Made by a program: the position numbers and the translations under genes. Positions 19,185 through 51,898 of a stretch of 64,000 nucleotides of DNA are shown one piece after another. Numbering within the stretch: the stretch's first letter is position 1; each line of letters starts with the position of its first letter. Source of the DNA: Dictyostelium discoideum (Eukaryota); assembly GCA_000004695.1 (NCBI GenBank), contig CM000151.3, forward strand, positions 4,544,001 to 4,608,000, read 5' to 3'. The notes beneath the pieces are model-generated. The model made no database searches and was not told the origin of the DNA. It worked only from the letters and a program-made list of their open reading frames with translations.

Positions 19185-20306
19185 ATGAGTTCACCACACA
19201 TTGAACTTCACTCACAAAGAACATTATCTCCCCAACCAAGTTCAAATAATTTTGAATTGACAGGAAATAAAAGTTGTGCATTATCAGCTTCTTTAAATGG
19301 TTCCATAGATGATTTAAATAATAACAATAATAACAATAACAATAACAATAACAATAACAATAACAATAACAATAACAATAACAATAACAATAACAATAAC
19401 AATAATAATAACAATAACAATAACAATAATAATGACGGCGATAAAAACGATAAAAAATTACTTATTATAACAAATGCACCAACACCACCATTAACACCTC
19501 CACAACCCACAAAAACACAACAAACATTACTAGAATTAAACCAAAAATTTCAAGAGCAACAACAACAGCAACAACAACAACAACAATTACAAAAACAGAA
19601 TAAACAACAACAATCACAAAAACAACAAGAAGAACCACCATCATCACAACAAGAAGAACCACCATTATCACAACAACAACAAGAACAAGAACAAGAACAA
19701 GAACAAGAACAAGAACAAGAAGAACAATCAAAACAAAAAATAGAAGGAAAAGGAGGGGGAGGAGAGGAAGAGGAGTGTGAAGGAGGAGGAGGAGGAGAGG
19801 GAGAGGGAGAGGAGCAATTTAAAGAGGGTGATGAGGAAGAACACGAGGGTATTGAAATTGATCCAAATCTACCAACAACTGGATATACTGGTAAACGAAG
19901 ATCATCATTACAAATCAATGAAGCATCACCAAAATTAATACAAACACCATCAGTAGATAGAACATTATGTATATTAGATTCATTACCATGTCCAATCTTT
20001 CAAATTGGTATCATTGAGAATACAGAGAATGGTAATATTACATTGACTGGTTTTGCAAATGAAAGATTAACAACACTCTTATCATGTTCATCCAATCTAT
20101 TAGTAGACTCTTTAAAATCAATTCCATCACCACACTACAATACTGTACCATCATTAGAAAGTTGTAATTCAATCCCAATAAATAATTTAGCACCTGGTCT
20201 ATTACCAAATACTGATCCAACAAAAATATTAGATCCATATATTTCATTATATAATAAAAAACAATTAAAAGAACGTTATAGTAATAATAATAATAATACT
20301 AATACC

Positions 20307-20377
<71 letters not shown>

Positions 20378-20460
20378 TACCACTACTACCACCACCACTA
20401 CCACAACTACCACCACTACCACTACAACGACCACTACCACAACAACAACAAATGAGTCTG

Positions 20461-20533
<73 letters not shown>

Positions 20534-23500: not shown

Positions 23501-24200
23501 AAATAATACAAATAATACAAATAATATTGAAAATAAATCATCAATTGATTCACCATTATCAATAACTTCAACTTCATCTTCAATTATAACTCCAATTTTA
23601 ACTTCAAATAATTTAGATTTAAATAATAATAATAATAATAATAATAATTCAATTTTAGTTTCAAATAATGGTGGTGTTGATGGTGGAAATAATGTTCCAT
23701 CAACATTAACAACAATTCAACAAAGTCAACCAAAGAAATATATTTTAGTTGCAGAAGATAATGATATTAATATTAAAGTTGTAGTTAGACAATTGGAAAA
23801 GTTAGGATATACTGCAATTGTTGGAATTAATGGATTGAAAGCTTTGGAAATAATTGGAAGTTTTCCAATTTGTTTAATACTTTTAGATTGTCAAATGCCT
23901 CAAATGGATGGTTTCACATGTTCCACTATTTTACGTCAAATTGAACCAACTGGTCAACGTATACCAATCATTGCAATGACTGCAAATGACTCAAAGGATA
24001 GATGTTTCGAAGTTGGTATGGATGATTATCTCTCAAAACCTGTCAGAGTTGATAGACTTCAAAAAACTTTATCCGATTGGATTAAAACTGATGAAAATGG
24101 TAATCCAACAAATTCTTATAATTTTTATCCATTATCTTATTCTTTGGTTTATAATAATTTTATTGATACTCAATTAAAAAAAGAAAAGAATGACGATTAA
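19185..24200 (+). CDS. dokA: hybrid sensor histidine kinase (HisKA + HATPase_c + receiver), 1671 aa, single exon
   Basis: H-box FITNISHELRTPCHGIVGM, N-box LLNLVGNAVKFTETG, G1 DSGIGIP, G2 GGSGLGLSFCKELV, receiver ILVAEDNDINIKVV...ILLDCQMPQMDGF...DDYLSKPV. Long poly-N/Q/T low-complexity N-terminal half. The symbol is tentative: I recall the Dictyostelium osmosensing hybrid kinase DokA as 1671 aa, but cannot verify this without a database. Confidence 0.85.
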
Positions 24201-34941: not shown

Positions 34942-35133
34942 ATTTATAAAGAACAATGTGTGTTTTTTAAAATTAAATTATAAAATTAAGGTGGTTTCTA
35001 AAATAAATAAATAAATAAAAAAATAAAAAAAGATCATATTAAAAATTTAAATAAATTAGGTGTATATTGTTTCTATTTACATGTCGAGATTTCTTTTATT
35101 TAATTTTTTTTTTTTAATTTTTTTTTTTTTTTT

Positions 35134-35992
35134 TTAATCTGTTCCAGTCGATGTTCTATTCATTGAATTTATACTTAATTGAAGTAATCTCATATTATCG
35201 ATTAATTTCTTTATTACACAATTTTTTTGATATGCATCCTATATTATAATAATAATAATAATTAATTTAATAAATAAATTTTTTTTTTTTTTTCTTGAAC
35301 ATAAAATTAATAATAATAATAGTAATTACCATTTTTAATCTTTCCAATTCATTAGATAATGAGGTTTGATCCTGTTTTTCTATATTAATTGTTGTTGTTG
35401 TTGGTGCTGAGGTACTACTATTATTATTATCATCTTTCATGATAGTATCATCATTATCAATATTATCTTTTGGTTTTTGTGATATTTTAGTTTCTAATAA
35501 TGAAATTTCTTTAATAGTTTTTTGTAATGCTAAAATTGATTGAATGCAATTTTGATTTAATTCTTTAATTTTATCATTATCATTTACAAAATTTAAATTT
35601 AATGTTGGTAATGTTGGTGATGATGGTTGTTCTTTTGTAGTTGTTGTTGCTGTTGAATCTTTTGAATTTAATGGTGATGTTGTAGAAGTTGTTGTTGTTG
35701 GTGTTGTTGTTGATGATGTAGATGATGTAGTAGTGGTTGTTGTAGAATTATTAGTATTAGTATTTGTTGAATTATTTGTAGAAGAAGGAATACTTTGAGG
35801 TTGTTGAAGTTGTTGTGATTGCAATTGTTGTTGAGCTTTAGTTGAAACTTGGTATGTTAATACTGGATCAGATTGAATGGTTTTTAATTGCTTTACAATT
35901 GCTAATATATTCAATAGTAGTTTATGTATTGATTTTTCACCTTTTACTGCCAATGAACAAATCAATTCCTCTTCAATTTCAATTTTATCCAT
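35134..35992 (-). CDS. coiled-coil protein with S/T/Q-rich middle region (exons 35992-35330, 35238-35134)
   Basis: ATG at 35992 (MDKIEIEEELICSLAVKGEKSIHKLL...). GTAATT donor after ...ELERLKM at 35329; ATATAG acceptor at 35239. Second exon DAYQKNCVIKKLIDNMRLLQLSINSMNRTSTGTD*. The leading poly-F stretch of ORF 35267-36085 is upstream non-coding read-through. Confidence 0.5.
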
Positions 35993-36343
35993 TTTATATA
36001 TATATAGGTTCAAAGATAATTGAAAATGCAACTCAAAAAAAAAAAAAAAAATAAAAAAATAAAAAAAAAAAAAATGAAAATGCAACTCAAATGAAAAAAA
36101 AAAAAAAAAAAAAAATGGTGTGAGTGGAAATTTTAAAATTAATTCTTAAAGTCCAAAAAATATAGAAATCATTTTAATAATATAATATTAAGTAATTAAA
36201 TTTTTATTATTATATATTTAAAAATATTTTTGAATACCTTTTTTTTTTTTTTTCTTTTTTTTTTTTAAAGTTTGGTATAAATTTTTAATTGAATGTAAAA
36301 AAAAAAAACTTTAAAAACCTTTTAAAGAAAGAAAACCATTTTT

Positions 36344-37051
36344 TTATTGGGATGGACCAAGATCAAATTCTGGATGTTTTTTAAGATACTAGAAAATAAT
36401 AATAAAAATTGTTAGAATATATTTTATTTAAAATATAATAAAAAATAAATAATAAATTAAACTTACTTCATGAATTTCTAGATAGGATAATTTATCGTTC
36501 TTATCCTTATCAACAGCACTAAAGAAGTATCTGCATGAGCTTTTGGCTCTTCTGCATTTAGCTTTTTCCCTTTCTTCAGCACTTAATTCATCATCTTCTT
36601 CATCAAAATCCGGATCTTTAAGGTACAATTGATACATTTCATCAAATGTTACAACACCGTCATTATCAGTGTCATATTTCTTACGGAAATCTTTGACCTT
36701 GGATCTGAGAGCTTTTTCAGTTCTGATTAAATCTTGTTTAATTTTCTTGGACATTAAAACTTCTCTAATTTCCTGGATGGAAAGGTTTTCAGTATCAGCA
36801 TCACGATTATAATGATCAAACATTGATTTTGTGGCAGCAAGTGGATCCTTAATATTGGAATTTGAGCTCATACGAGAGAAAACTTCATCCCATGATAAGT
36901 TACCATCACCATCTTTGTCAAAAGAAGTAAAAATTTTTTCCTAATTATTTTAAAAAATAAAATTAATAATTTTAAATAAAAAATTATATATTTTGAAAAA
37001 AAATAATTTAAAATTTAAAATACTTACAATTTGAGCTTCAACCTTAGACAT
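36344..37051 (-). CDS. EF-hand calcium-binding protein (exons 37051-37028, 36940-36467, 36388-36344)
   Basis: A 24-nt first exon (MSKVEAQI) is followed by GTAAGT. Exon 2 carries EF loops DKDGDGNLSWDE, DTDNDGVVTFDE and DKDKNDKLSYLE and ends CATGAA|GTAAGT. A 45-nt last exon gives YLKKHPEFDLGPSQ*. Phases fit ORF 36428-36871. Confidence 0.7.
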
Positions 37052-37459
37052 TGTTTTTTTAAATTTATTTGTTAAGTTATTATTAATGATTAAAAAAAAA
37101 AAAATTGTTTCTTTTTATACAAAAAAAAATAAAAAATAAAAAATAAAAAAAAAAAAATAAAAAAAAAAACTTTTTGCCCACTCATTTATTTTTTTTATTA
37201 TTATTATTTTTATTATTAAAAACTCATTCCTAGTATGGGCAAAATAATGATTTTTTTTTTTTAACTTTTTTTTTTTTTTTCAGACACTATTTTTATATCC
37301 CCCAATTAAAAAAAAAAAACCTTTTTTTTTAATAATAATTATAAAATTATAAAAAAAAAAAACTTGTTAGGTGTTTTATGAACCCACAGCATGAATAATA
37401 AAAAAACACTTCATTTTTTTTATTTTGTAATTTGACACACCACTAAAAAAAATTAAAAA

Positions 37460-37540
37460 AGTAAAAAAATGAAAAAATTAAAAAAAAAAAAGATTTAAAT
37501 CACCTTTTTTATTAATTGAATCGTGATTGACACCCACTTT
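37460..37540. repeat. dispersed ~60-80 bp repeat, copy 1 (aaaaagtaaaaaaa...agatttaaatcacctttttt..ttgaatcgtgattgacacccacttt)
   Basis: Near-identical to 39403-39463 (agatttaaatcaccttttttt..ttgaattgtaattggcacccacttt). Both copies sit just 3' of minus-strand genes. Confidence 0.7.
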
Positions 37541-37582
37541 CAATTTTTTTTTATTTTTATTTTTTTTATTTTTTAATAATTG

Positions 37583-38705
37583 TTAATTTAATGAAAGTTT
37601 AATAAATGAACAAAGAATGTTTGGTAAACTTGAAACTTTATCAATTTTAAAATTTGATAATTTAATTAAATTATTCCATTCATTTAAAGTTCTTTCTTTA
37701 CCACCATTTAAAATATTAATTGTATCTATTTAAAATTTAAATTAAAAAATATAATAATTAATAATAATAATTAAAAATAATTAAATTAAATTTAATTTCA
37801 AAAGATACATACGATATTCAATTGAAATTGGAATTGATTTTTTATTTTTATAAATTATATGATCAAATATATAAATACAAACTTCATTTTGATATGAAGA
37901 TTTAATTGATTTATAAATTTTATTTAAAATTTCTAATACTTGATTATCGCTAAACATATGGAATATATATTTAACTAAATAACAATTGCCAATTGGAAAT
38001 GTTTCATCAGTGAAAAAGTTACCCATTATTTCAAAATAACGATTATCTTTATAATTTTTTTCATTATTTTCAATTACTTCTTTTAAATCATAATTAATAC
38101 CTTTTTCAATGATTGAATTGTTTAAATGATATTTATCCAATATTTTCTTAATAGATTCACCTTGAGAACCACCCAAATCAACAATTGTTTTAAAATTACT
38201 AAAATCAACAATTTCTAAAATTGAATCAATTTGAGTTCTAGTGTATTCAGTCAATGTATTGTGAAAATATTTTTTAAGATTTTTTTCTTTATCAATGAAA
38301 TCAAAACCATCATTATAACCACTATTAAAAGTGCCCATTGCTTTTCCAGTTTTAAGACTTTCTTCAATATGTTTAAAATATGGTAATAATGTAACTTGAA
38401 AATATGAATCATTTACCCATGGATACTTATCTGTATCATTAATTAATGTTTCAGAAATTTCAGTATTTGAAAATAGTCTATCAATTTCTTCATCTTCTTT
38501 AAAAATACCCATAGTAGATAATGTTCTCAATAAAACATATAATCCATGCTCATTATATCCATTACATTCTTAATTGTTTAATACTTTTTGAACCATTTTT
38601 TAATTTATTTGGAATTTCTAATTCTAAAATAACTTTTAATGAGTATGATTTTATATAACCAGTTGCAATATCATATATAAAATTTTTAATTTGAATATTT
38701 TCCAT
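37583..38705 (-). CDS. class I SAM-dependent O-methyltransferase (plant COMT-like), with an N-terminal frame discontinuity near 38545 (exons ~38705-37813, 37725-37583)
   Basis: Dimerisation-domain N-terminus (YIKSYSLKVILELEIPNKLKNGSKSIKQL) and ...ECNGYNEHGLYVLLRTLSTMGIF lie in frames offset by 1 with only 5 nt of overlap. SAM motif VDLGGSQG and IFHMFSDNQVLEILNKIYKSI. GTATGT donor at 37812; AATAG acceptor; last exon ...GGKERTLNEWNNLIKLSNFKIDKV...*. Confidence 0.65.
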
Positions 38706-38760
38706 TATTATTATTATTTATTATTACTATTTCTTTTAATTTTTTTTTTTTAAATAATCC

Positions 38761-38791
<31 letters not shown>

Positions 38792-38878
38792 AAATACTTA
38801 TACAACTAATTTTTATAATATAATAAAAAAAGATAAAATCTCCAAATCTCTTAAATTTTATAAATTGAATACACTAAA

Positions 38879-38884
<6 letters not shown>

Positions 38885-38965
<81 letters not shown>
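38885..38965. repeat. poly(dT) tract ~80 nt (5' flank of minus-strand O-methyltransferase)
   Basis: Uninterrupted T run; longest homopolymer in window. Confidence 0.9.
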
Positions 38966-38989
38966 CAGTTAATTTCCGACCTATTACAT

Positions 38990-39400
38990 CTCCAATTGGT
39001 TGTCAAAGTAATTGGAATTTCATCAAATTCCTATAATGGTATATTTTACTTATTAAATGATAATAAATAGGCAATTTTTATAATTAATAAATGAGGTATG
39101 TCATTATCTTTAATATTATTATTGTTTCAGATTTATGTGTAAACAAATGAGTGAATTTTAAATTTTCAGAATTTAAACTATTTACAAGAATATTATTAAA
39201 ATAATTATCTATTATTCTTTATTTTGAGTAAATAAATTCAATAATCCTAATAAAAATTACCATTCAAAAATTGTAAACCAAAACCATGTAATAATTCACC
39301 CATTGCATCATTTCTAGTAACAGCACCAATACTTTCTATATGACAAAAATTAATAGCTAAAGTAGGTAATCCTATTCTTCCATATTTGAAAGTAGGTAAT
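38990..39400 (-). pseudogene. polyketide-synthase fragment (ketoreductase C-terminal / inter-domain region), degenerate
   Basis: The minus-strand translation GLPTLAINFCHIESIGAVTRNDAMGELLHGFGLQFLNGN then hits stops. It is clearly paralogous to IGLPALAINFGHIGSIGVVTRNDAISELLHGFGLQSMNGN in the 48.9-kb PKS remnant. No start codon and multiple stops downstream. Confidence 0.5.
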
Positions 39401-39402
39401 AA

Positions 39403-39463
39403 AAAGTAAAAAAAACAAGATTTAAATCACCTTTTTTTATTTTTGAATTGTAATTGGCACCCA
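39403..39463. repeat. dispersed repeat, copy 2 (see 37460-37540)
   Basis: Same core with 2-3 substitutions; lies between the PKS fragment and the Ran-like gene 3' end. Confidence 0.7.
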
Positions 39464-39589
39464 CTTTTATTTTTTTATTTATTATTTTTATTATTATTTT
39501 TATTATTTTTATTATTATTTTTATTATTATTTTTGTTATTATTTTTGTTATTATTTTTATTATTATTATTTTTATTATTATTAATCAGT

Positions 39590-40764
39590 TTAAGACAATG
39601 AAAAAGAATTTTTAAAATCAGAATTTAAATCATCTGTATTATAAAATGTTAATGGTATTGTTTTAACCACTTCAATACTTTCATTTTTAAATGACTCTTT
39701 TTCTTTTTCTTTTTGTTCCTCTTCTTTTTTTTCTTCTTTTTTTTCTTCCTCTTTTTCTTTTTCTTCATGATCTTGGGCTTTGGATGTTAAATGAAAATGA
39801 TAATCTGGTGATGGAATTAAGTCAACATTATCATTACCACTTAAAAGTCTGATTAATTTGAGGAATGGTTTTTCAAGATTAAAATTTGTTCTAACCGATA
39901 GTTCAAAATATGAAATATTCTTTTTACGATGAAATATAATCTGACTTGGGTTAATTCTTTTACCCATTGATTCTACTTTATTACCAACTAAAACCATTGG
40001 AACCACCTTACCTGTTATTCTTAATAATTCATTAAACCAATCGTTAACGCTTCTATATGATTCTCTTGAACAAACATCAAACATTATAATTGCACATTCC
40101 GCTCCAGTCCTATTACAATAATATTAATTAATATTAATATTAATACAATAAATGTTATTTTTTTATATTTATAGTGAATGGAGAGTGTGAGAGTGAGAGA
40201 GAGAGAGAGTGAGTGAGGTATACTTACATATAATCATCTCTCATAGCTCCAGGTAATCTAGTAAAAGCCATATCCCAAATACTGAAATTAACATCACCAA
40301 TAGTTGTTTTAAAATTAAATTTATGAACACTACAACCAAAAGTTGCTAAATAAAAATAAATAAAAATAAAAATATTGGTTATTATTATTTTGGACTGATA
40401 GTTTAATTTAAATTAAAGAGAATAATAAACCTACCAACATATTGAGTTTCAAATTCACCTGTTAAAAGTCTATTTATATAGGTGGACTAATAATAATATG
40501 ATATTAGTATATTTAAATATATTTGAAAAAGTTTATATATATAAAACCTACTTTACCAACTCCACCATCTCCAATTAATACTAATTTAATTTCTTTAGTA
40601 TTGTCAAATTTTTTAACTACTGGTAATGATGGTTTATTTTTTGATGATGATAATCCCAATGAAAATTGCGCACTTGATGGCGATGCTGCTGTTGTTGTTT
40701 TTGGTGTTCCAAAATCAAATGGTGGTGCTGTTGGTGGTGGTCCAAATTCAAATAGTGATGCTGT

Positions 40765-40861
<97 letters not shown>

Positions 40862-42068
40862 CCCAATCCAAACGGTGAACTTAATGGTGATGGTGCTGTT
40901 GGTGAACCCGATCCAAATGATGGCGTACTTGGTGGTACCAATCCAAATAATTCTTGTTCTATTTTTGTAATTTGTCCATATCTAAATGGTGGTGCTGTTG
41001 ATGGTGATGCTGTTGTTGTTGTTGTTGCTACTGTGTTTGATGATCCCGATTCAAATGATGGTGCTGTTGGTGATCCCGATCCAAATGATGGCGTACTTGG
41101 TGGTACCAATCCAAATAATTCCTGTTCTATTTTTGTAATTGGTCTATATCTAACTGGTGGTGCTGTTGGTGTTGATGCTGTTGTTGATGCTGTTGTTGTT
41201 GTTGTTGTTGTTGCTACTGTGTTTGATGATCCACCAAATCCCGATCCAAATGATGGTGCTGTTGGTGATCCCGATCCAAATGATGGCGTACTTGGTGGTC
41301 CAAATCTAAATAATTCTTCTTCTATTTTTGTAATTGATCCATATCCAAATGGTGATGCTGTTGATGTTGATGCTGTTGTTGTTGTCGTTGTTGCTGCTAC
41401 TGTGTTTGATGATCCACCAAATCCTAATGAAAATGCATCTCCTGATGGTAAAAGTGGAAGAGGTGAAACAAAACGAACGTTATCATTACCACTTAATATT
41501 TTGATTAATTGAATGAATGGTGTTTCAAATTTATAATTTGATTTACTTGAAATTTCACAATAGTGAATATTCTTACTACGATGAAAATTAATTTCCTTTG
41601 CTTTAACTTTACGATCTTTGATATCAACTTTATTACCAACTAAAATAATTGGTATATTATTACCTAATTCCTTTGTTAATTCATTAAACCAACTTGGTAC
41701 ATTCCTATATGAAACTCTTGAAGAAACATCAAACATAATAATTGCACATTGACTTCCAACACTATTATAATATATATATAATTAAATATTTTAATATATA
41801 TATATATATATATATACTTTTAATTATGAATTTTTTAAAATAAACTTACTAATATAAATGTCTAAATACTTCAAATTTTTCATCACCACAAGTATCCCAA
41901 ATATCAAAATTAACATTGCCGATATTAGTGTAAAGAATTAGATTACTTAGTTCTACTCCAACCGTAGCTATATTTTTATTTTATTTTTTTTATGTTTTTA
42001 TAATTAATAAAAATAAAAAAAAAGTTAACTATTTTCATAATAATAGTAATAATAATAATAATAATAAC

Positions 42069-42127
<59 letters not shown>

Positions 42128-42673
42128 TGATTTTAATGATACTTACGAATATGGCTTTTTTGAAATTCGCCTATTATATGACGTTTTAAAAATGTAGTCT
42201 AATTAATTCATGATAATAATAATAATAATTAATAATTAATAATTAAAAATGTAAAAATAATAATAAACAATTACTTTACCTTACCAACACCACTATCACC
42301 AACTAATATTAATTTGATGGGTCCATTTTTCTGTGTATTTTTTATGTTTTATGTGTATGTTAGTATATATATTTTTTTTTTTTTTATATTTAATGAAATA
42401 AATAATTTATTTTTAAAAATATATATATATATATATATATATAATTTACAATATCAATTGGTTTAATATTTTGATAAGCTTTTTGTTCAATTGGACTATG
42501 ATCTTCATCCTCAATTGGTATTTGTTCTCCTATTGCTTTTTCATAAGATGAAAGTAGCTCCGAATCAATATCACTAATATTAAATGTTGACTAAAAGTAA
42601 GAGAGTATTTTTAAAAAAAAAAAAAAAAAATTAATAAAAAATATTAATAAAAAATATTTTAAAATGGTAATAT

Positions 42674-42716
<43 letters not shown>

Positions 42717-42725
42717 TGTTACCAT
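39590..42725 (-). CDS. tandem Ran-like small GTPase: Ran-like domain 1 + FG/S/T-rich repeat linker + degenerate Ran-like domain 2 (about 9 exons: ~42725-42723, 42590-42450, 42330-42280, 42198-42147, 41967-41850, 41761-40552, 40487-40436, 40346-40228, 40109-39590)
   Basis: Domain 1 is spread over 5 small exons (KLILVGDSGVGK|TTFLKRHIIGEFQKSHI|PTVGVE...NFDIWDTCGDEKF...HLYY|VGSQCAIIMFDVSSR...NKVD...FHRSKNIHYCEISSKSNYKFETPF). ORF 40513-41736 continues without a stop through ~300 aa of repeats (PSTPSFGSGSPTAPSFGSGFGGSSNTVATTTTT) into a second G1 motif KLVLIGDGGVGK. Three more small exons follow, then ORF 39590-40084 (MFDVCSRESYRSVNDW...NKVE...). All donors are GTAGGT/GTAAGT/GTAAAT/GTAAAG. No Met or stop lies between domain 1 and domain 2. 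The first exon may be ATG only (aaaATG|GTAACA at ~42723). Confidence 0.55.
42047..42125. repeat. (ATA/AAT)n microsatellite inside intron of Ran-like gene
   Basis: ~26 trinucleotide units between exons ~42198-42147 and 41967-41850. Confidence 0.85.
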
Positions 42726-42738
42726 TTTAAAATATTAT
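42651..42738. repeat. inverted repeat (~18-bp arms aatattttaaaatggtaa / ttaccattttaaaatatt) flanking a T40 spacer
   Basis: Arms are exact reverse complements. Each arm reads aaaATG|GTAA on its own strand. Confidence 0.8.
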
Positions 42739-43637
42739 AAAAATAATAATTAAAAAAAAAAAAAATTTATAAAAATTGTAACTTGGTGAATTTTTTAAAA
42801 TGGAAATAAGTTGGAAAAATTATGCATTACTTTGGCAAAAGCAGACTTTTAAGAGAAAAAAAGTTTTTATAAGTATTTGCACCATAAAAACTTTTTAGAT
42901 ATTTACGATGATGAAAAAAAAAATGAAAAAAATGAAAAAAATAATAAAAAAAATGAAAAATAGATGGAGTTGAAAACAAGAGTGAGGCGTTTTCTTGGTG
43001 TGTCTTGATCTTGACCCCTTCACCAAAGTTAAAACAAATTTAATTCAAAAAAAAATAAATTTAAATAAAAAAAATAAAAAAAATTTAAATAAAAAAAAAA
43101 AAAACTTTTAACCAAAGCAAAAATATAAATAAAAAAAATCATTTCACAAGAAATAAACACATAAACACACAAATAAAATGAATAAATATTTATTTTTTTA
43201 TTATTATTATTTTTATTTCTCATTATTTTGAGATTGTTTTCTTTTTAATTTTCCTAATTAGGATTTTTTTTTTTTTTTTTTTTTTTTTGGTGAGTTTTGA
43301 GATAATAATAAATTGAAAAATTGGTCTATCTTTGCCAATGAATTAAAGAAATGCAAAAAAGAAAAATAAAATAAAATAAAATAATAAATGTAGGTGAAAC
43401 ATTCTATTAATGATGCTTCGCATTTGTCACCTTTCATGTATAGAATTTCTTTTGTGGAGATAGATGTTGTTCCAAATTTATATTGACCTCATTGAATTTG
43501 CATCTGTACCCAAATGGATATTTGAACCAAATTTGTTTTCTGATCTGAGACAAGATAAACTATCTATCAATATAGATTGCAATACGAGTGAGTTTACGAA
43601 CACAAGTGGATTGATTGTTAACTTTATTACTTTCAGT

Positions 43638-43640
<3 letters not shown>

Positions 43641-43706
<66 letters not shown>

Positions 43707-43720
43707 ATTATTATTATTAT
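43641..43720. repeat. (TTA)n microsatellite
   Basis: ~26 units, embedded in a moderately GC segment of unclear origin. Confidence 0.85.
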
Positions 43721-44496
43721 CAATGATTTAATTGATGACAATCCGTTGAAGAAGGGAACCATTCCAATCAATCAGTGTTTCATTTACTGTAACAAATGTA
43801 TTTTTTGTAATTCCCAACTTTTATTAAAAAAAAAAAAATATTATTAATTATTATTAAAATAAAATTAAAAAAAAAATTTTAACTAAGTAAAAAAAAAGTA
43901 AAATTTTAACATTATTATTAAAGTAAAAAAAAAAAAAAAAATTAGCCAAGATTTGTCACAATAATTTTTGGCCTTTATAACGTCAAAGATGATAAAAATG
44001 ATTTAAATCTATTTTTAATATGAATTCATAGTATAGTTAAATAGAGCACAAAAACAAAAAAAAAAAAAAAAAAAGTGTTGACCATTTTGTTTTTTGAAAT
44101 TTTTTAACAAATTTGTATTTTTCTTTTTTTTTTTTTTAAATTGATCTTCCAATAGGATATTTCCAAAAAAAAAAAATAAAAAAATAAATAAAAATAATAT
44201 AAAATATAAAAAAAAAATATCCTGTAAAATTAAAGATTATTATTAGAATTGTTTTAAAATAACCCAATATTGGGTTAATTGATGAAAAAAAATAAAAAAA
44301 AAATATCAATCAAAAAAAAAAAAAATAAAAATAAAAATATCTGGTTGAGGTACGAAAAAGTAACCGCAAATTTTTAAACAATAAATGGCCTCAAAATTTT
44401 TAAAAAATAAAAAATTCTTTTTTTCTTTTAAAAGACCATCATAATATAATCCAATATTTCTTTTTTTTTGAAATACAGAAAGTTTGTCACACAAAA

Positions 44497-46931
44497 ATGA
44501 CATTAAACCAAATAATTTTATCATTGATTTTGGGTTTGAGTTTAATGACTACAATCATTAAATCAGTTCCAATGGACCCAACAATTTATATTGAAGGTAC
44601 AATTTTTGATCAATGGCCAGGTATGTTTTCAAAAAATAAAATAAAAATTTATATAATTATAATTTTTAATTTTTATTATTATTATTACTATTATTTTTAT
44701 TTTACTAAACTTTTATTTTTTACTACCTTTTTATTTATTTTTTTTTAAAAAAAAAGAATATAATTATAATTTTGAAAAAACCAACCCAGGAAGTAATGTT
44801 AAAACCCTTGGAATGGTAAAAGCAAAATTGAACTCAACAACAAAAGTTCCAGAACTTTCTTCAGATGATACTAAAACTTCACCAAATACATTAGGTACTA
44901 TGCAATATCCAGAGTTATTTAAATATCACTTTACATCAAATGTTGATGCACCAGCATCCAAAAACTCTGGTAAAAATTTACCAATGAAAATACAATTCAA
45001 ATTAGATCAAGACAATAGTGGTTTTTATACTTTTTTCAATCAAACTTTTTTCCCAAGTAAGTAGTGTAAATTATTTAATTAACGAGAGAAAAAAAAAATA
45101 AATAAAATATTAATAATATCTTTTTAATTAGTTGATAACATGGGCTACGATGTAGATCCATCATTTAGAATTTATAAACAAAGTGGTAACTATCATAATT
45201 TCCATTTTTGTGTAAAGGTATGTGTTGAATAAATTTAATTAGTTTTTTAACTTTTTATATAATTTTAAAACTAATTTTAATTATTTTATTTTATTTTAAA
45301 AATTAGATGAATAGTCGTTTTACTTATAATGGAGGTGAAGTTTTTAATTTTAAAGGTGATGATGATTTATGGGTATATATTGATGATAAATTAGTAGTTG
45401 ACGTAGGTGGTATTCATCCAGCACAAGATGGATCTGTTAATCTTGATACATTAGGTTTAATTAAAAATAAAGTTTACCCATTAGATTTATTCTATTGTGA
45501 AAGACATACTGATGGTTCAACTATTAGTATTCAAACTACTATTCAAGCTTATTGTGCCTGTAAGTTTAATTTATATTTAGTACCAAATTAAAATAATATT
45601 TTAATATTTATTATTTCTTTTTTTTTTTTTTTTTAGGGTATGATTATTGTGGTGTATGTGGTGGTACAGGTGCAGTTTGTTGTAATGCTAAAGCTAATTG
45701 TGATGATGGTGATTTATGTACAATTGATAGTTGCCCACAACCAAATTTAGCATTCCCAGATCTTCAATCAGTTTATAAGAATTGTTCTCATATTCCAAAA
45801 GATTGTCCACCAGCAAATAAATGTCAAGTAAATTCATGTGATAAAACTACAGGAAATTGTAAACCAGAAAATTTAAAGTGCCCAGACAGATCAAATGAGT
45901 GTCTTAAAAATACAGGTTGTGATGATTTAACCGGTTGTAAATATGTTAGTATATGCACAGATTCATGCGATAAAAAAGGTAATGCTTGTGTTGCAGGTAA
46001 ATGTCAACAAAAAACAACTAGCGATTGTGCTGCTGAGTTAGATGATAATTCATGTAAAGTATATTCTTGTAATTCAACTCGTGGTGGTTGTTACTCTGAA
46101 AACAAATGTAAACCAGATCCAACTCAAATTTGTGATGTTGCAAGTTGTGATGATGGTGCTTGTAGTATCAAAACTTTACCACCTGATGAATGTAATTGTG
46201 GTTGTAAACCAAACTTTTGCCAAAAGAGTAATTGTGTTAAAAACCCATCAAATAATCAATTCGAATGTTCTCTTTTACCAGCAGATGGTATTGATGATGG
46301 TAATGCTTGCACTGAAGATATTTGTGATGCAGTGGCCCAAAAAATAACTCATGTACCATATGATACTTGTAAAGGCTGTATGTCATGTAATCCATCAAAT
46401 GGTGATTGTGAAGCTCATAACGAGGTTTGTAATGATTTTAATGCATGTACTGAAAATGTCTGTTCTCCAGTTAAAGTTGGTGCAGGTGTTGGTGAATGTG
46501 TAACTACCAATACAACATGTGCACCAACCACAAACGTTGATAAATGTAAAAACTACCTTTGCGATTCTGAAAAAGGTTGTTATGAAACCGATGTAGTTTG
46601 TCCAGATAGTGGAAATTGTAAAGTTGGTCATTGTGATTCCAAGGTAGGTTGCTCTTTGAAGCCACGTGTCTGTAAATCACCAGCTTTTTGCATCGTAGCA
46701 GAATGTGATGAAACTGTTGGTTGCATTGCATTTGAGAGACGTTGTGCATCAAGTAATCCAAAATGTAAAGCAGGTATTTGTGTAAATGGTACAACACCAG
46801 AAGAAGGTGAATGTGAATCTGTAAATTATGATCCAAAACCATTTATTTGTCAAACTGGTGCTATAGTTTCTACTGCTGTAATTGCTGGTGTAACTGTTGC
46901 TGGTGCTGTTGCTCTTGGTATTTTCATTGTA

Positions 46932-46974
<43 letters not shown>

Positions 46975-47176
46975 TTATTATTTTAATTCCAATTCTAATT
47001 CTAATTTTTTTATTTATTAATCATTTTAAAATAATTAGTATGGTGGTAAACGTGGTTATGATTATTGGAAAGAAAGTAGAAGCATTTCTATGAGTTCTGC
47101 TGTTTCAAGTCCAATGTATGTTCCTTCTGCAAATGCTTCTGAAAATCCACTTTATATTCCAGAAGGAGAATTATAA
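44497..47176 (+). CDS. PA14-domain, Cys-rich-repeat type I membrane protein (Dictyostelium psi/PA14 family-like) (exons 44497-44620, 44757-45056, 45132-45217, 45307-45559, 45637-46928, 47039-47176)
   Basis: Signal peptide [25 protein letters not shown]14 block [25 protein letters not shown]...[10 protein letters not shown]. About 1.3 kb of CxxC-type Cys-rich repeats. TM segment [23 protein letters not shown]. Short cytoplasmic tail ...[10 protein letters not shown]. Donors GTATGT/GTAAGT; all phases verified. Confidence 0.7.
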
Positions 47177-47667
47177 ATTAAAAATAAATAAAAAATTGTA
47201 CTATATTAAATGATTTACCAAAATAGAACTCAAATACTCAAACATGGTTATTTGTAACAAAATAATAAAAAAAAAAAAAATTAAAATAAATAAAATAAAA
47301 TTAAATTAAATAAAATTTTTAAATAAAAAAACTAATATTAAAAAATAAAAAAATTATTTGTTCAAAAAAAAATGTTTTGTTGACTTAATTTCATCACCAG
47401 ATTCTCAATTTAATTAACATCATCATCTTTATTCAAAGCCCAAGGTCATGAAGAAAAAATGAAAAGAAAAAAATGAAGAAAAAAAAAAAAGAAAAAAAAA
47501 AAGAATATTTAAAAAAAAATGAAAATATTTCCATGATTAATACAATACCATTAACATTTTATAATCTAGATGATTTAAAATCAGATTTTAAAAATTCTTT
47601 TTCCTTGTTGTCATAACAAATTAATAATTTTTATAGAAAAGATAATAATAAATAATAAATAATAATA

Positions 47668-47709
<42 letters not shown>

Positions 47710-47974
47710 AAATTAATAGTAATTATAAAATAAAAAATAAATAACATTTAATCTAATTTCAAATACTCATTTTCTAACAAGGAATCTGTGATTTTTATAA
47801 TAGTAAAAAATTAAAATATAATACACAACTGTATATCAACATACACCCTCCCCCTCATATCTCATACGATTATTGAGAATAAGTTGAAATGTATGTAAAT
47901 TTATATATAAATAAATATATATATTTTCAAAATGATATTTTTATTATTTTATTTTGTTTTTTAAAAAATAAAAT

Positions 47975-49440
47975 GCAAATGGAGTTTGACAATAAAAGTA
48001 AAAGCAAATATCAAAATGATGTTGCCATTATTGGGTTGGGTTTTAGGTTAACTGGTAACTCAAACTCACCCAAATTATTTTGGTTTGTATTTTACTTTTA
48101 AAAAAACCACACACATATATAAAATATAAAATAATATTAATAATTTGATAATATTATAATCATAGGAATAATTTAATTAATAAATTTGATGGCGTTGTTG
48201 AAATTGATAGATGGAGTAAAAACTATTATTTAAATAATGAAATTAAAAATCATCAAGGTGGTTTAATATCATTAGAAGAACAAATAAAAATGTTTGATCC
48301 ACTTTTCTTTTCAATTCCACCATCTGATGCTGAAACAATTGATCCACAACAAAGACTACTTTTAAAATGTATTTATAATAATTATATATACTTAATGATT
48401 TTTATATAATATATATATATATATATATTAATTATTTTATAATATGATAGGTGTTTGGGAAGGATTTGAAGATGCAAATATTGATCCAATTAAATTACGT
48501 GGTAGTAATACAAGCGTTTACATTGGTTTGTTTATCCACAAATGATTATTTTAATAATTTAAAAAATACAAAGGAAACCTTAACTAATGTATTTGGATCA
48601 TCAGCACACAGTGAATCAAATAGAATTAGTTATTGTTATGATTTTAGAGGTCAATCAATTCACGCCAAAGAGCTTTTTTGAAAAGAAGAATAAAAAACAT
48701 TAAAAACCAAAAAAACTTGAAAAGCATAAAAACTTTAGGTTGTATTTATCTTCATCAACTATCATTAAAATATAATTGGAAATTAAAGAATTTTATAATT
48801 CCATCATCTATATCATCTCTATTTGGTGTTCAAAATCAATGTGGTTATGTTAGTGCTAATTGTATTAGATAGTTTTGCAAAGTATAGAAGATCAATTGGT
48901 TTACCTGCTTTGGCTATTAATTTTGGTCATATTGGAAGTATTGGTGTAGTTACTCGAAATGATGCAATCAGTGAATTATTGCATGGCTTTGGTTTGCAAT
49001 CTATGAATGGTAATATTTTGTTAGGTTCATCAGATTTATTTAGTCAAAATAAAGAAATAATTGATAATGATTATAGTAATATTATTGTAAGCAGTTTAAA
49101 TTTTGAAAATTTAAAATTCAGTCATTTGTTTACAAATAAATCTGCTTTTAAACTTAATTCAATATCAAATAATAATAATATCTATGGTAATAACAATAAT
49201 AATAATAATAGTAAGGATATATATCTCAATTGGTAATTTCAAAAATTGACTATTTATTATCAATTAATTAATAAAATATTAATTCAAATATACCATTATC
49301 AGAATTTGGCGGAGATAGTTCAATAATTACTCAAATTAAAAATTGGTTAGATAAATTTAAAAATAACCACTTTACAATATCTGAAATTCAAAAATATTCA
49401 ATTAATGATATAATTAAAAAATTAATAATTAACAAATAAG
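47975..49440 (+). pseudogene. polyketide synthase remnant: KS N-terminal fragment fused to KR C-terminal region and ACP, with frameshift(s) and a large internal deletion
   Basis: KS start MQMEFDNKSKSKYQNDVAIIGLGFRLTGNSNSPKLFW; then (GTTTGT...AG intron) [21 protein letters not shown]...[43 protein letters not shown] frame slip follows, then [48 protein letters not shown]. Next come KR C-terminal/linker YRRSIGLPALAINFGHIGSIGVVTRNDAISELLHGFGLQSMNGNILLGSSDLF and an ACP-like EFGGDSSIITQIKNWLDKF...*. AT, DH and most of KS/KR are missing. Confidence 0.6.
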
Positions 49441-49608
49441 ATAAATATATAATTATGTCTTATAATTTTATTTAATGTTTACTATTTGATTAATTTTTAA
49501 AACATGTTTCAAAAAAAATTAAAAAAAAACAAAAAAAAAAAATATAATAATAAAAATAATAAGAAAAATAAAAATGATAATATATTTATAAAAGGTTTTG
49601 AATGCTGT

Positions 49609-51098
49609 TTATTCTGAAATGTTTTTAGTTCCTCTTAAACGACCAGTACGACGGGCAGCAATTAAACCAACTTTCTTACCAGCTGGATCGTCTCTCTTGG
49701 TTGTAGTGGCATGACCAACATGTTGATGATTACCACCACCGTGTGGATGTTCTACTGGATTCATAGCAACACCTCTAACCTTTGGCCAGTTATTCTTCTT
49801 AACTCTGTATTTGTGGAAAGCACGACCAGCTTTGAGCATTGGTTTATCGATACGACCACCACCGGCAACAATACCGATCATAGCACGAGCTAATGAAGAA
49901 ACGTTCTTCTTTGAACCTGATGGTAATTTGATACGGGTAACACCTTCATCTGGGTTGTGTGAGACGATGGTAGCATAGTTACCTGAACAACGAGCAACAG
50001 CACCACAATCACCGAGTTTTTCTTCAACGTTGCAAATGATGGTACCTTCTGGGAGTTTACCAATTGGGAGGATGTTACCAATGGTGAGGGTGGCTTTTTT
50101 ACCAGCGAAAACAAATTGACCAGTGTGCATACCTTCTGGGGCGATGAATAATTGTTTGTCTAATTTGAATTGGGTTAAGCCTTTGAAAACAACACGGGCT
50201 AATGGAGCACCTCTACCTGGATCGTGGATGATCTCCTTGACAACACCTTTAACGTAACCTTGACGTTCGGCATAATCTAAGGCACGGAAACGTGGGGTAC
50301 CTTTACGGTGGTGAGTGTGTGCACCGAAAACTGAACCGGCTTTACCTTTTCTTTGAGCTAAATTTTTTAAAAAAAAAAAAAAAATAAAAAAATTGATATA
50401 GATTAATACCTTTTTTTTTCGTTTTTTTATTTTTTTTTTTGGGAAAACCAATGAGAAGTTTAATTTTTTTTTTTTTTTTGAAAATAAAATAAAATAAATG
50501 CTATAAATTGATTATTTTTTTTTTTATTATGTGTGATTCTAATAAATTTTAAAGATTATCCAATTTATGGTCATTTCTAAACTATCTTTCTTGATAAAAT
50601 AATCCCATTATGTATCAAAAAACTAGTTTATTATTAACCAAAAAATAAGATAACCTAACCCTGGTTTCAACTCTAATTTACTAATGAAATATTCCAATTT
50701 TTTTTTTTTATTTTTTTTTTTTATGGTTTTTTTTTTTTCGGTTTTTTATTTATTATTTTTTATTTTTTATTATTACTACTACTACATTATCTCTTAATCA
50801 TCAATAACTATTCCTGTATTCTAACTAGTTGAATGAAATCTTAAATATAAAAAAAAGGTATCCAAAAATATTTATTTAAAAGAAAATTGAAATTTTATTT
50901 TTTTTTGATTGTTTTTTTTTTTGTTTTGATTATTTAATTTTACTGATAATTATATTATTTTATTTATTTTTATTGGTAATTATTTTATTTTTATATTATT
51001 TATTTATTTATTTATTTTTTTAAAAAAAAAAAAAAAATAAAAGTTATCAAAGGTTAACAAAGAGATAAAAATTATTTACCTCTGATTATTCTACCCAT
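49609..51098 (-). CDS. rpl8: 60S ribosomal protein L8 (uL2) (exons 51098-51080, 50357-49609)
   Basis: ORF 49609-50451 is collinear with uL2 ([19 protein letters not shown]...[42 protein letters not shown]...). The first exon ATG GGT AGA ATA ATC AGA G (MGRIIR) sits at 51098-51080, followed by GTAAAT. The TTTAG acceptor at 50358 restores the frame (A QRKG...). Intron ~722 nt. Confidence 0.85.
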
Positions 51099-51898
51099 TT
51101 CGCGTTTTTATCTGTATATCAAAAAAGTGAACAATGCCGCGTTTTGCGTTAATTTTTTTTTTGGTGGAGTCTACCGAAAAAAAAAAAATTCAAAAAAAAA
51201 AAAAAAAAAAGATGCCACCCACTAAAAATTTGAGTTTTTTACATAACCTTTACATAAAGTTATGTAAAAAAAAAAAGATTTGAAAAAAAAAAAAAAAAAA
51301 AAAAAAAGCGAAAATAAAATTTTAAAAAATCTAGGGAAATTTAACAAAAAAAGTAATAAGCAAGGACTATAATTAAAATTAATATTAATTTTTTTTTTTT
51401 TTAAATCAAATACGATTGTTGAATAATATTAAAAAAAAAAAAAAAAAAAAAGAAAAAGGAATTTAATAAAAATTTAAAAATAGAACCCATTCCTTTTTTT
51501 TTTTCTAATTGTTTTTTTTTTTTTACCACAAATCTTGGAAAAAAAAAATAAAATAAAAAAAAAAAAAATAAAAAAAAAAAAAAAAAAAAAATTTTAATTT
51601 AATTTGATTAAACCAATAAATAATTGATAAAGAAAAAACACTTTTGTTATTTTTTTAATTTTTTAATTTTTTCTTATTGATAACCAAAACTAAAAATTAT
51701 TCTGCCAACCTAAAAAAATGGAAATAAAAATAAAAATAAATTAAATTAATTTTTAATTTATAGAAATTGATTAAAAAATAAAAAAATAAGAACAAATTAA
51801 AGACAAAAAAATAAAACAAAAAACTTAATTAAACAAATAAAAAAAAAATGTAAAAAAAATTAAATTTTAGAATTTTTTTTTTCACTTGAAACATCAAA

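What the first reader, a model, noticed from the sequence alone, without database searches (positions are those of the whole stretch)
47975..49440. Decayed polyketide-synthase gene: KS N-terminus joined to KR-C/ACP with internal deletion and frame slips
Dictyostelium type I PKS genes are ~8-9 kb. This locus keeps only about 0.6 kb of KS (with a 1-nt frame slip after SVYIG and a stop after QSIHAKELF), then ~0.35 kb of KR C-terminal/linker and an ACP with the GGDS phosphopantetheine motif. The AT and DH domains and most of KS/KR are gone. A GTTTGT...AG intron interrupts the KS start. Together with the 39-kb KR fragment and the adjacent O-methyltransferase, this looks like the wreck of a PKS/OMT biosynthetic cluster.
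Basis: partly seen in the sequence, partly recalled or inferred. Interest (0 to 1): 0.6.

Follow-up and report, generated by a model that had tools for sequence, protein, structure and literature searches.

The report
Gutted polyketide synthase pseudogene remnant
This 1.5-kb stretch of Dictyostelium discoideum chromosome 2 is the dead stump of a 2,546-codon polyketide synthase gene that lost its middle 83%; related amoeba lineages still carry longer copies of the same gene, each broken in a different way.

Summary
Window 47973-49439 (+) is an unprocessed, unitary pseudogene of a FAS-like iterative type I PKS. It matches Pfam KS-N (E 5e-34), KR C-terminus (2e-11) and HR-PKS ACP (2e-14).

A sister-lineage assembly has, at the same position between the PA14 gene and rpl8, a KS-AT-MT-ER-KR-ACP gene. 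Its 2,546-codon frame is interrupted only by a 1.8-kb transposon. Used as a probe, it maps residues 1-171 and 2291-2537 onto the remnant. Residues 172-2290, including the KS catalytic Cys, match nothing in the 64 kb. The breakpoints are sharp (48660/48728) and bridged by 67 bp of filler.

Five further lesions are present: a +4 bp duplication, a -2 bp deletion, a -58 bp deletion and two nonsense codons. A conspecific assembly is 100% identical over the remnant, so this is not an artefact.

Three other lineages carry the same gene broken by entirely different lesions, which means at least four independent inactivations. The 39-kb scrap belongs to an older inverted copy lying next to an O-methyltransferase that is itself frameshifted.

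This is an ordinary kind of feature with a tidy comparative story. Interest is low to moderate.

The parts
47462..47608 (+). Fragment of the 3' end of a Ran/Ras-like GTPase gene, duplicated together with the PKS. It is the inverted copy of 39595-39741.
   Evidence: Inverted repeat I1, 147 nt, 78%. The peptide ...IPLTFYNLDDLKSDFKNSFSL matches the C-terminus of the ORF at 39590-40084.
47979..48082 (+). PKS exon 1 (orthologue residues 1-35). An extra in-frame ATG lies at 47973.
   Evidence: tblastn aa 1-35, 88.6%; DNA alignment to L001.
48083..48165 (+). Intron 1 (GT..AG, phase 2), conserved in the orthologues.
   Evidence: Alignment to L001 10105-10181, 82% identity.
48166..48368 (+). PKS exon 2 (residues 36-102 plus the first base of codon 103), KS N-terminal domain.
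   Evidence: tblastn 90.4%; Pfam PF00109.
48369..48450 (+). Intron 2 (GT..AG, phase 1), conserved in the orthologues.
   Evidence: Alignment to L001 10385-10471.
48451..48660 (+). Truncated PKS exon 3 (residues 103-171). It contains the 4-bp tandem duplication GTTT|GTTT at 48526-48533 (frameshift) and ends 11 nt before the codons of the DSACSGS active-site motif.
48661..48727 (+). 67-bp A-rich filler at the deletion junction. It replaces codons 172-2290 (about 6.36 kb of coding sequence), holds the TGA stop at 48679-48681, and has no identifiable source.
   Evidence: Junction alignments; blastn-short finds only low-complexity matches.
48728..49155 (+). KR C-terminal part and post-KR linker (residues 2291-2433), with a 2-bp deletion at 48861/48862 that shifts the frame inside ...SAN(C)VLDSFAKYRR.
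   Evidence: tblastn in two frames, 93.5% and 90.9%; Pfam KR 115-178 of 180; alignment.
49156..49220 (+). Shortened poly-Asn linker, 58 bp shorter than in L001 (not a multiple of three).
49221..49439 (+). ACP remnant (residues 2475-2546). It carries two nonsense codons, TAA TAA at 49269-49274 (GAA>TAA and TCA>TAA). The GGDS motif is kept (Ser codon 49317-49319). The native stop is at 49437-49439.
   Evidence: tblastn 88.9%; Pfam PF23297 E 1.6e-14.
39021..39402 (-). Scrap of a second, older, inverted PKS copy (KR-C, linker, first half of the ACP; about residues 2336-2500). It is internally frameshifted and about 14% diverged from all orthologous copies.
   Evidence: Inverted repeats I2 and I20, 86%; tblastn 74.5% and 63% in two frames; four-way alignment; identical in L013.
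37582..38705 (-). O-methyltransferase gene next to the 39-kb scrap, apparently disabled. The ATG frame stops at 38564-38562 after 47 codons, and homology continues one base out of frame.
   Evidence: The frame-repaired protein matches Dimerisation 5-92 of 93 and Methyltransf_2 1-209 of 210. The same bases occur in a second assembly.

Best explanation
The locus is a non-functional, unprocessed (intron-retaining), unitary pseudogene. It is what remains of a roughly 7.8-kb FAS-like iterative type I polyketide synthase gene (KS-AT-[DH region]-MT-ER-KR-ACP, 2,546 codons) that sat between the PA14 gene (probably psiL) and rpl8 on D. discoideum chromosome 2.

In the lineage leading to the reference strain, an intragenic deletion removed codons 172-2290. 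That takes out the KS catalytic cysteine, AT, MT, ER and most of KR. The break was sealed with 67 bp of filler, which is typical of end-joining repair; this step is inferred. The stump then, or also, acquired a +4 bp duplication, a -2 bp deletion, a frame-breaking loss in the Asn tract and two nonsense codons. The order of these events is not resolved. It cannot make a PKS and has no predicted protein function.

The gene arose as the inverted duplicate of an older GTPase-PKS-OMT arrangement 8 kb away. That older PKS is now a 0.4-kb scrap, and its OMT is frameshifted.

The same gene has been inactivated independently in at least three other closely related lineages.
For: Shown directly:
- Pfam matches to partial KS, KR and ACP only.
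- Collinear orthologue in L001/L006. Flanking synteny is 87-93% identical and 8.2 kb of L001 is absent from the window. Pfam finds AT, MT, ER, KR and ACP in the missing part.
- Excising a 1,811-bp TIR/TSD transposon restores a 2,546-codon frame.
- The probe maps aa 1-171 and 2291-2537 and nothing else in 64 kb.
- Base-level breakpoints and lesions.
- 100.000% identity over 2,551 bp in an independent conspecific assembly, L003.
- Other lineages have different, non-overlapping lesions. L010 has -1, -1, -89, -1321 and -10 bp lesions. L004 keeps only aa 1873-2016 plus 2278-2305. L006 has the transposon only.
- Flank tree: ((L010,L006),(window,L003)),L004,L005.
- Branch-wise substitutions over 382 codons: window branch 19 synonymous, 25 non-synonymous, 2 stops. 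L001 branch 11 synonymous, 3 non-synonymous. Fisher p=0.03.
- The closest solved structure to the orthologue is D. discoideum Pks16, 9nju, E 1e-113 and 2e-249.
- Window coordinates match AX4 chr2 gene coordinates in PMC3188802 supplementary file 2.
Against: - Pairwise omega against L001 is only 0.27, and about 0.34 on the window branch. This is not the value near 1 expected of a long-dead sequence. I read it as recent inactivation diluted by earlier constraint, but counts are small and the window 'branch' includes the stem of the L006+L010 pair.
- No transcript data could be consulted, so residual transcription is untested.
- An automatic annotation of the conspecific assembly calls two short genes on the remnant (154 aa with PF00109; 166 aa).
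- Single-base frameshifts in L010 could be partly long-read assembly errors, although its 89-bp and 1,321-bp deletions are unlikely to be.
Confidence: 0.93

Rival explanations
1. The remnant still encodes one or two small functional proteins, for example a 154-aa KS-N-terminal peptide and a 166-aa KR-C/linker protein, as the gene models on the conspecific assembly imply.
For: Gene models of 154 aa (PF00109) and 166 aa are called on L003. The promoter-proximal exons, both introns and the start codon are intact. Omega on the retained codons is below 1.
Against: The KS piece lacks the catalytic Cys and about 60% of the KS fold, and it is frameshifted at codon 128. The KR piece lacks the Rossmann N-terminal half and is frameshifted. 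The ACP has two in-frame stops. Non-synonymous changes and stops are concentrated on the window branch. Gene finders routinely model ORFs on pseudogenes.
Confidence: 0.03
2. The KS part and the KR/ACP part come from two different neighbouring PKS paralogues fused by unequal recombination, rather than from a deletion within one gene.
For: Dictyostelid PKS genes are numerous and similar; pks5 and pks7 are about 88% identical according to PMC9618038. A second PKS copy did exist 8 kb away.
Against: Both halves are collinear with a single gene in L001/L006 and L010 between the same flanking genes. Their divergence from that gene is similar (dS 0.13 and 0.16). The second copy is inverted and about 14% diverged, which is not the source of either half.
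Confidence: 0.02
3. The apparent deletion and frameshifts are assembly or sequencing artefacts of an AT-rich, repeat-rich region.
For: The region is 75-85% A+T with long homopolymers. Such regions are error-prone.
Against: An independent long-read plus short-read assembly (GCA_054883475.1) is 100.000% identical over 2,551 bp covering every lesion.
Confidence: 0.01

Closest known systems
Dictyostelium FAS-like iterative type I (highly reducing) polyketide synthases, e.g. Pks16 (PDB 9nju) and Pks5 (dictyodene synthase, KS-AT-DH-MT-ER-KR-ACP; PMC9618038)
   Same: The intact orthologue is collinear with Pks16 across KS and AT-to-ACP (E 1e-113 and 2e-249). It has the same domain order. The remnant keeps family-typical KS-N, KR-C and C-terminal ACP sequence, including the GxDS motif.
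   Different: 83% of the coding sequence is gone, including the catalytic Cys, AT, MT, ER and the KR nucleotide-binding half. The rest is frameshifted and contains stops. It is a relic of a family member, not a working member.
The five recognised D. discoideum PKS pseudogenes ('open reading frame interrupted by stop codons'; PMC9618038, citing Zucko et al. 2007)
   Same: Same gene family, same organism and same fate (loss of function).
   Different: Those are described as near full-length genes with stop codons. This one is a 1.5-kb stump produced by a 6.4-kb internal deletion. I could not establish whether it is among them or carries a '_ps' entry in dictyBase. Its position at about 4.58 Mb on chr2 lies between the positions I recall for pks15 and pks16, which suggests it is not one of the numbered genes; this rests on my own recollection and is unverified.
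Unitary (unprocessed) pseudogenes with lineage-specific independent inactivation
   Same: Introns and synteny are retained, no functional copy is left at the locus, and different disabling lesions occur in different lineages.
   Different: Nothing unusual. Here the divergence scale is very shallow (flank distances of 1.4-6%), and one lineage retains an open frame broken only by a transposon.

Membership tests
Functional type I iterative PKS (FAS-like, dictyostelid) | Complete KS domain with the catalytic Cys (D[ST]ACSxS motif) and His residues | tested here: not met
   Homology ends at residue 171, 11 nt before the codons of DSACSGS in the orthologue. Pfam covers only positions 2-169 of 252 of KS-N, and there is no KS-C.
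Functional type I iterative PKS (FAS-like, dictyostelid) | Acyltransferase domain | tested here: not met
   The orthologue has PF00698. No match to residues 172-2290 anywhere in the window at E<=10.
Functional type I iterative PKS (FAS-like, dictyostelid) | Intact ACP with a phosphopantetheine-attachment Ser in a continuous reading frame | tested here: not met
   The GGDS motif is present (Ser codon 49317-49319), but two TAA codons at 49269-49274 interrupt the ACP, and it is out of frame with the upstream segments.
Functional type I iterative PKS (FAS-like, dictyostelid) | Single continuous multi-domain ORF of about 2,400-3,100 codons | tested here: not met
   The retained segments lie in frames 3, 2, 3, 1 | 3, 1, 3 with six disabling lesions.
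Unprocessed unitary pseudogene of a PKS | Sequence homology to a PKS with retained introns (not a retrocopy) | tested here: met
   Both introns are retained with GT..AG at orthologous positions.
Unprocessed unitary pseudogene of a PKS | Orthologous, syntenic full-length gene in related genomes | tested here: met
   L001/L006 has a 2,546-codon frame plus a transposon. L010 is near full length. Both lie between the same PA14 and rpl8 genes.
Unprocessed unitary pseudogene of a PKS | Disabling lesions that are real, not sequencing errors | tested here: met
   100.000% identity over 2,551 bp in an independent assembly.
Unprocessed unitary pseudogene of a PKS | Relaxed selective constraint | tested here: inconclusive
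   The window branch has 19 synonymous, 25 non-synonymous and 2 stop changes, against 11 and 3 on the L001 branch (Fisher p=0.03). Against L001+L010 pooled, p=0.09. Omega is about 0.3, not 1.
Unprocessed unitary pseudogene of a PKS | Absence of a functional transcript or protein | not testable with these tools
   No expression data were available.
PKS/O-methyltransferase biosynthetic gene pair | PKS and tailoring OMT adjacent and co-oriented | tested here: met
   On the minus strand the order is GTPase, PKS scrap (39402-39021), OMT (38705-37582). L004 has the same order, with a different PKS scrap and an OMT scrap. Both partners are decayed, so this is a former pair; co-function is inferred only.

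The most novel reading that the evidence does not exclude
The repeated, independent destruction of one PKS gene may not be neutral drift. The events are a deletion in the reference lineage, a transposon in L006, multiple deletions in L010 and near-total loss in L004, on top of the earlier decay of its inverted paralogue and the adjacent OMT. This could reflect clade-wide selection for loss, or a shared upstream trigger such as loss of the tailoring OMT or of the ecological target, for a specific methylated polyketide in the D. discoideum species complex. The L006 allele is interrupted only by a transposon and would allow the ancestral metabolite to be resurrected.
Probability: 0.15. Interest if true: 0.5.

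Novelty: new member of a known kind. Interest (0 to 1): 0.3.

Why it matters
In itself this is an ordinary pseudogene in a family already known for rapid, lineage-specific birth and death (PMC3188802).

It matters in three modest ways:
1. It should not be counted or annotated as a PKS or as small ORFs. An automatic annotation of a sister assembly does exactly that.
2. It gives a dated, base-resolved example of how dictyostelid PKS genes die: end-joining deletion with filler, transposon insertion and microsatellite slippage. It includes at least four independent inactivations of one orthologue within about 6% flank divergence.
3. The L006 allele, whose 2,546-codon frame is broken only by a transposon, is a practical starting point for resurrecting and expressing the lost enzyme to learn which polyketide the D. 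discoideum complex recently gave up.

Tried and rejected
- Protein search with the PA14 C-terminal exon, to collect syntenic loci, returned nothing. Very long proteins and some clusters seem unreachable through the word index. Full-length PKS proteins were also absent from the KS search, so I rebuilt a full-length probe from L001 DNA instead.
I got round this through the listing of cluster members (P0154).
- I looked for an origin of the 67-bp filler in the window and in L001 and found only low-complexity hits.
- There is no obvious microhomology at the junction by eye; this was not analysed further.
- I tested whether the start of the 39-kb scrap coincides with the 2-bp deletion in the main remnant, which might have hinted at gene conversion. 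The boundary is about 10 nt away, so I treat it as coincidence.
- D. firmibasis (L011) and D. purpureum (L012) could not serve as outgroups, because synteny around rpl8 is broken and no PKS lies nearby.
- No outgroup carrying the gene was found, so the window branch in the three-taxon analysis includes the stem of L006+L010.
- Literature searches found counts of PKS genes and pseudogenes (40 plus 5) but no list with coordinates. The relevant supplement of PMC9618038 is not held.
- The strain names behind the assemblies (my guess: JBTAPE=AX2-214, F=CR116C, G=OT3A, H=M4B, I=S6B, K=CF3B, L=GS8B, M=AR5b, from the order of Table 1 in PMC12745789 and contig sizes) could not be verified and are not used as evidence.

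Full report
**What is in the window**

The window is very A+T-rich, with short GT..AG introns. Its gene coordinates match D. discoideum AX4 chromosome 2 exactly. The 1671-aa histidine-kinase ORF at 19185-24200 and the rpl8 gene starting at 49609 both give an offset of +4,530,431 to the dokA (4,549,616-4,554,631) and rpl8 (4,580,040-4,581,529) coordinates in supplementary file 2 of PMC3188802. The exact rpl8 protein is that of AX4 (EAL69949.1).

- A KS N-terminal segment split by two introns.
- A KR C-terminal and linker segment.
- A C-terminal ACP.

Pfam confirms each piece, and only as a partial domain: PF00109 positions 2-169 of 252 (E 4.6e-34), PF08659 115-178 of 180 (E 2e-11) and PF23297 11-79 of 95 (E 1.6e-14).

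**The orthologue and the deletion**

The best protein hit to the KS piece (91% identity) is a 590-aa model from another assembly labelled D. discoideum. Its locus, L001 (GCA_054859355.1), is syntenic with the window:
- The PA14 gene is 92.8% identical.
- L001 9897-10677 matches window 47881-48660.
- L001 18851-21937 matches window 48728-51749, including rpl8.
- L001 10678-18850 has no counterpart in the window.

In L001 the PKS frame is interrupted only by a 1,811-bp element with 128-bp terminal inverted repeats (96% identical) and a CACAAT target-site duplication. Excising it restores ...FSGQGTQYSKMAYQLY... and a 2,546-codon frame. Pfam finds KS-N, KS-C, KAsynt_C_assoc, AT, methyltransferase, ER (ADH_N and ADH_zinc_N_2), KR and ACP. 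Pfam did not detect a DH domain in the 540-residue AT-MT interval.

This protein is collinear with D. discoideum Pks16, the closest solved structure (9nju).

Used as a tblastn probe against all 64 kb, it maps as follows:
- Residues 1-171 map to 47979-48660.
- Residues 2291-2433 map to 48729-49155.
- Residues 2475-2537 map to 49221-49409.
- A short second copy maps to 39402-39129 on the minus strand.
- Residues 172-2290 match nothing, even at E<=10.

**Lesions at base level**

1. A GTTT tandem duplication at 48526-48533 (+4 bp) shifts the frame after SVYIG.
2. Homology to the orthologue stops at 48660, 11 nt before the codons of the DSACSGS catalytic motif, and resumes at 48728. The 67 bp between are A-rich, of untraceable origin, and contain the TGA at 48679-48681.
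3. A 2-bp deletion at 48861/48862 breaks the KR motif ANCVLDSF.
4. The poly-Asn linker is 58 bp shorter, which is not a multiple of three.
5. GAA>TAA at 49269-49271 puts a stop codon in the ACP.
6. TCA>TAA at 49272-49274 puts a second stop codon beside it.

Both introns keep their splice sites, so this is an unprocessed pseudogene. An independent assembly of the same species (GCA_054883475.1, L003) is 100.000% identical over window 47100-49650. The lesions are therefore real.

**Comparative picture**

Using the exact rpl8 protein as a key, I retrieved this interval from eight further assemblies.

A neighbour-joining tree on 4.5 kb of shared flank gives ((((L010,L006),(window,L003)),L004),L005),(L007,L009),L008. 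The distances are 0.014 for L010-L006, 0.032 from the window to that pair, 0.06 to L004 and 0.07 to L005.

| Locus | State of the PKS between rpl8 and PA14 |
|---|---|
| L006 (same contig as L001) | Full frame plus transposon |
| L010 | Near full length (96.9% to L001), with -1, -1, -89, -1321 and -10 bp frameshifting lesions |
| Window and L003 | The 6.4-kb deletion described above |
| L004 | Only residues 1873-2016 and 2278-2305 remain |
| L005 | No PKS sequence |
| L007, L008, L009 | A copine gene instead |

No lesion is shared between lineages, and the transposon's terminal repeat occurs only in L001/L006. [quoted passage not shown]

**Selection**

- Pairwise Nei-Gojobori values against L001:

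  | Sequence | dS | dN | omega |
  |---|---|---|---|
  | PKS remnant | 0.146 | 0.039 | 0.27 |
  | Neighbouring PA14 exon | 0.119 | 0.011 | 0.10 |
  | rpl8 exon | 0.023 | 0 | 0 |

- Three-taxon parsimony over 382 codons. Fisher's test for the window branch against the L001 branch gives p=0.03; against L001+L010 pooled, p=0.09.

  | Branch | Synonymous | Non-synonymous | Stops |
  |---|---|---|---|
  | L001 | 11 | 3 | 0 |
  | L010 | 7 | 7 | 0 |
  | Window | 19 | 25 | 2 |

- My reading is that the L001 lineage kept the gene under purifying selection until the transposon landed. Constraint was relaxed on the window branch, though not for its whole length. Counts are small, and the window branch includes the stem of L006+L010.

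**The 39-kb fragment and the OMT**

Window 39402-39021 (minus strand) is a frameshifted scrap covering KR-C, the linker and half the ACP. It is about 14% diverged from all three orthologous copies, so it is older than the split among them.

It lies immediately downstream of a multi-domain Ran/Ras-like GTPase gene. A 147-nt fragment of that gene's 3' end (47462-47608) precedes the main remnant. I infer that a GTPase-tail-plus-PKS unit was duplicated in inverted orientation.

Next to the scrap is an O-methyltransferase (38705-37582). From its ATG the frame stops after 47 codons, while homology continues one base out of register. With the frame repaired it matches the full Dimerisation and Methyltransf_2 domains. 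The same bases occur in the conspecific assembly, whose annotation nevertheless calls a 331-aa model.

In L004 the same order holds (GTPase, then PKS scrap, then OMT scrap, then the EF-hand gene), but with different scraps: PKS residues 1003-1143 and OMT residues 189-245. The OMT partners the older copy, not the main remnant.

**Comparison with what is known, and verdict**

- **Literature:** Dictyostelid PKS genes are known to diversify and turn over in a lineage-specific way (PMC3188802). D. discoideum is credited with 40 PKS genes plus five stop-codon pseudogenes (PMC9618038).
- **Prior annotation:** I found no published mention of this stump and could not check dictyBase.
- **Classification:** It fails every test for a functional PKS and meets the tests for an unprocessed unitary pseudogene.
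- **Novelty:** I class it as a new member of a known kind.
- **Interest:** About 0.3. The added value is the comparative result of four independent inactivations at shallow divergence and a transposon-only allele that could be resurrected. The remnant itself is ordinary.

Noticed in passing
L001 11858-13668 (= L006 17611-19421): A 1,811-bp non-autonomous-looking DNA transposon with 128-bp terminal inverted repeats (96% identical) and a 6-bp CACAAT target-site duplication. It is inserted at the FSGQGTQ motif of the AT domain of an otherwise open 2,546-codon PKS. The TIR is absent from the window and from the other 11 loci.
   Followed up: partly
window 37582-38705 (-): The O-methyltransferase gene has a frameshift: its ATG frame ends at TAA 38564-38562 after 47 codons, and homology continues in the +1 frame. 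The same sequence is present in assembly GCA_054883475.1, where a 331-aa model is still annotated. That model must skip about 42 nt, which is implausibly short for a Dictyostelium intron.
   Followed up: partly
L004 19534-19953 and 20028-20198: In a sister lineage, a different scrap of a second PKS copy (residues 1003-1143, 81%) and an OMT scrap (residues 189-245, 88%) lie between the GTPase gene and the EF-hand gene. This mirrors the window's order of 39-kb scrap followed by OMT.
   Followed up: partly
window 42967-44113 vs L001 2989-5637: L001 carries a 2OG-Fe(II) oxygenase gene (L001 4660-5474; PF13640, PF03336) between the GTPase and PA14 genes. It has no counterpart in the window. Conversely, about 1 kb of the window (42967-43987) has no counterpart in L001.
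   Followed up: no
L007 12128-13986, L008 12326-14167, L009 12089-13933: In three more distant genomes the rpl8-PA14 interval holds a copine (C2 + copine) gene instead of a PKS. No copine trace exists in the PKS-bearing genomes, and L005 has neither gene. The interval is a hotspot of gene-content change.
   Followed up: partly
window about 35,100-49,600 (AX4 chr2 about 4.566-4.580 Mb): The synteny table of PMC3188802 lists no D. purpureum syntenic gene between med30 and rpl8. This roughly 14-kb block (EF-hand gene, OMT, GTPase, PA14, PKS remnant) seems lineage-specific.
   Followed up: no
L003 11660-12252 and 12418-13126: The automatic annotation of GCA_054883475.1 calls two protein-coding genes (166 aa; 154 aa with PF00109) on the pseudogene remnant. 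These are probably annotation artefacts that would inflate PKS-related gene counts.
   Followed up: no
window 38884-38964: An uninterrupted run of about 80 T lies between the OMT start and the 39-kb PKS scrap.
   Followed up: no
window 40513-41736 (-): The multi-domain Ran/Ras-like GTPase gene contains three roughly 170-180-nt tandem repeats (84-88% identical) encoding Ser/Thr/Pro-rich linkers and a long poly-Ser tract. It is only about 80-82% identical to the L001 orthologue, so it diverges much faster than its neighbours.
   Followed up: no
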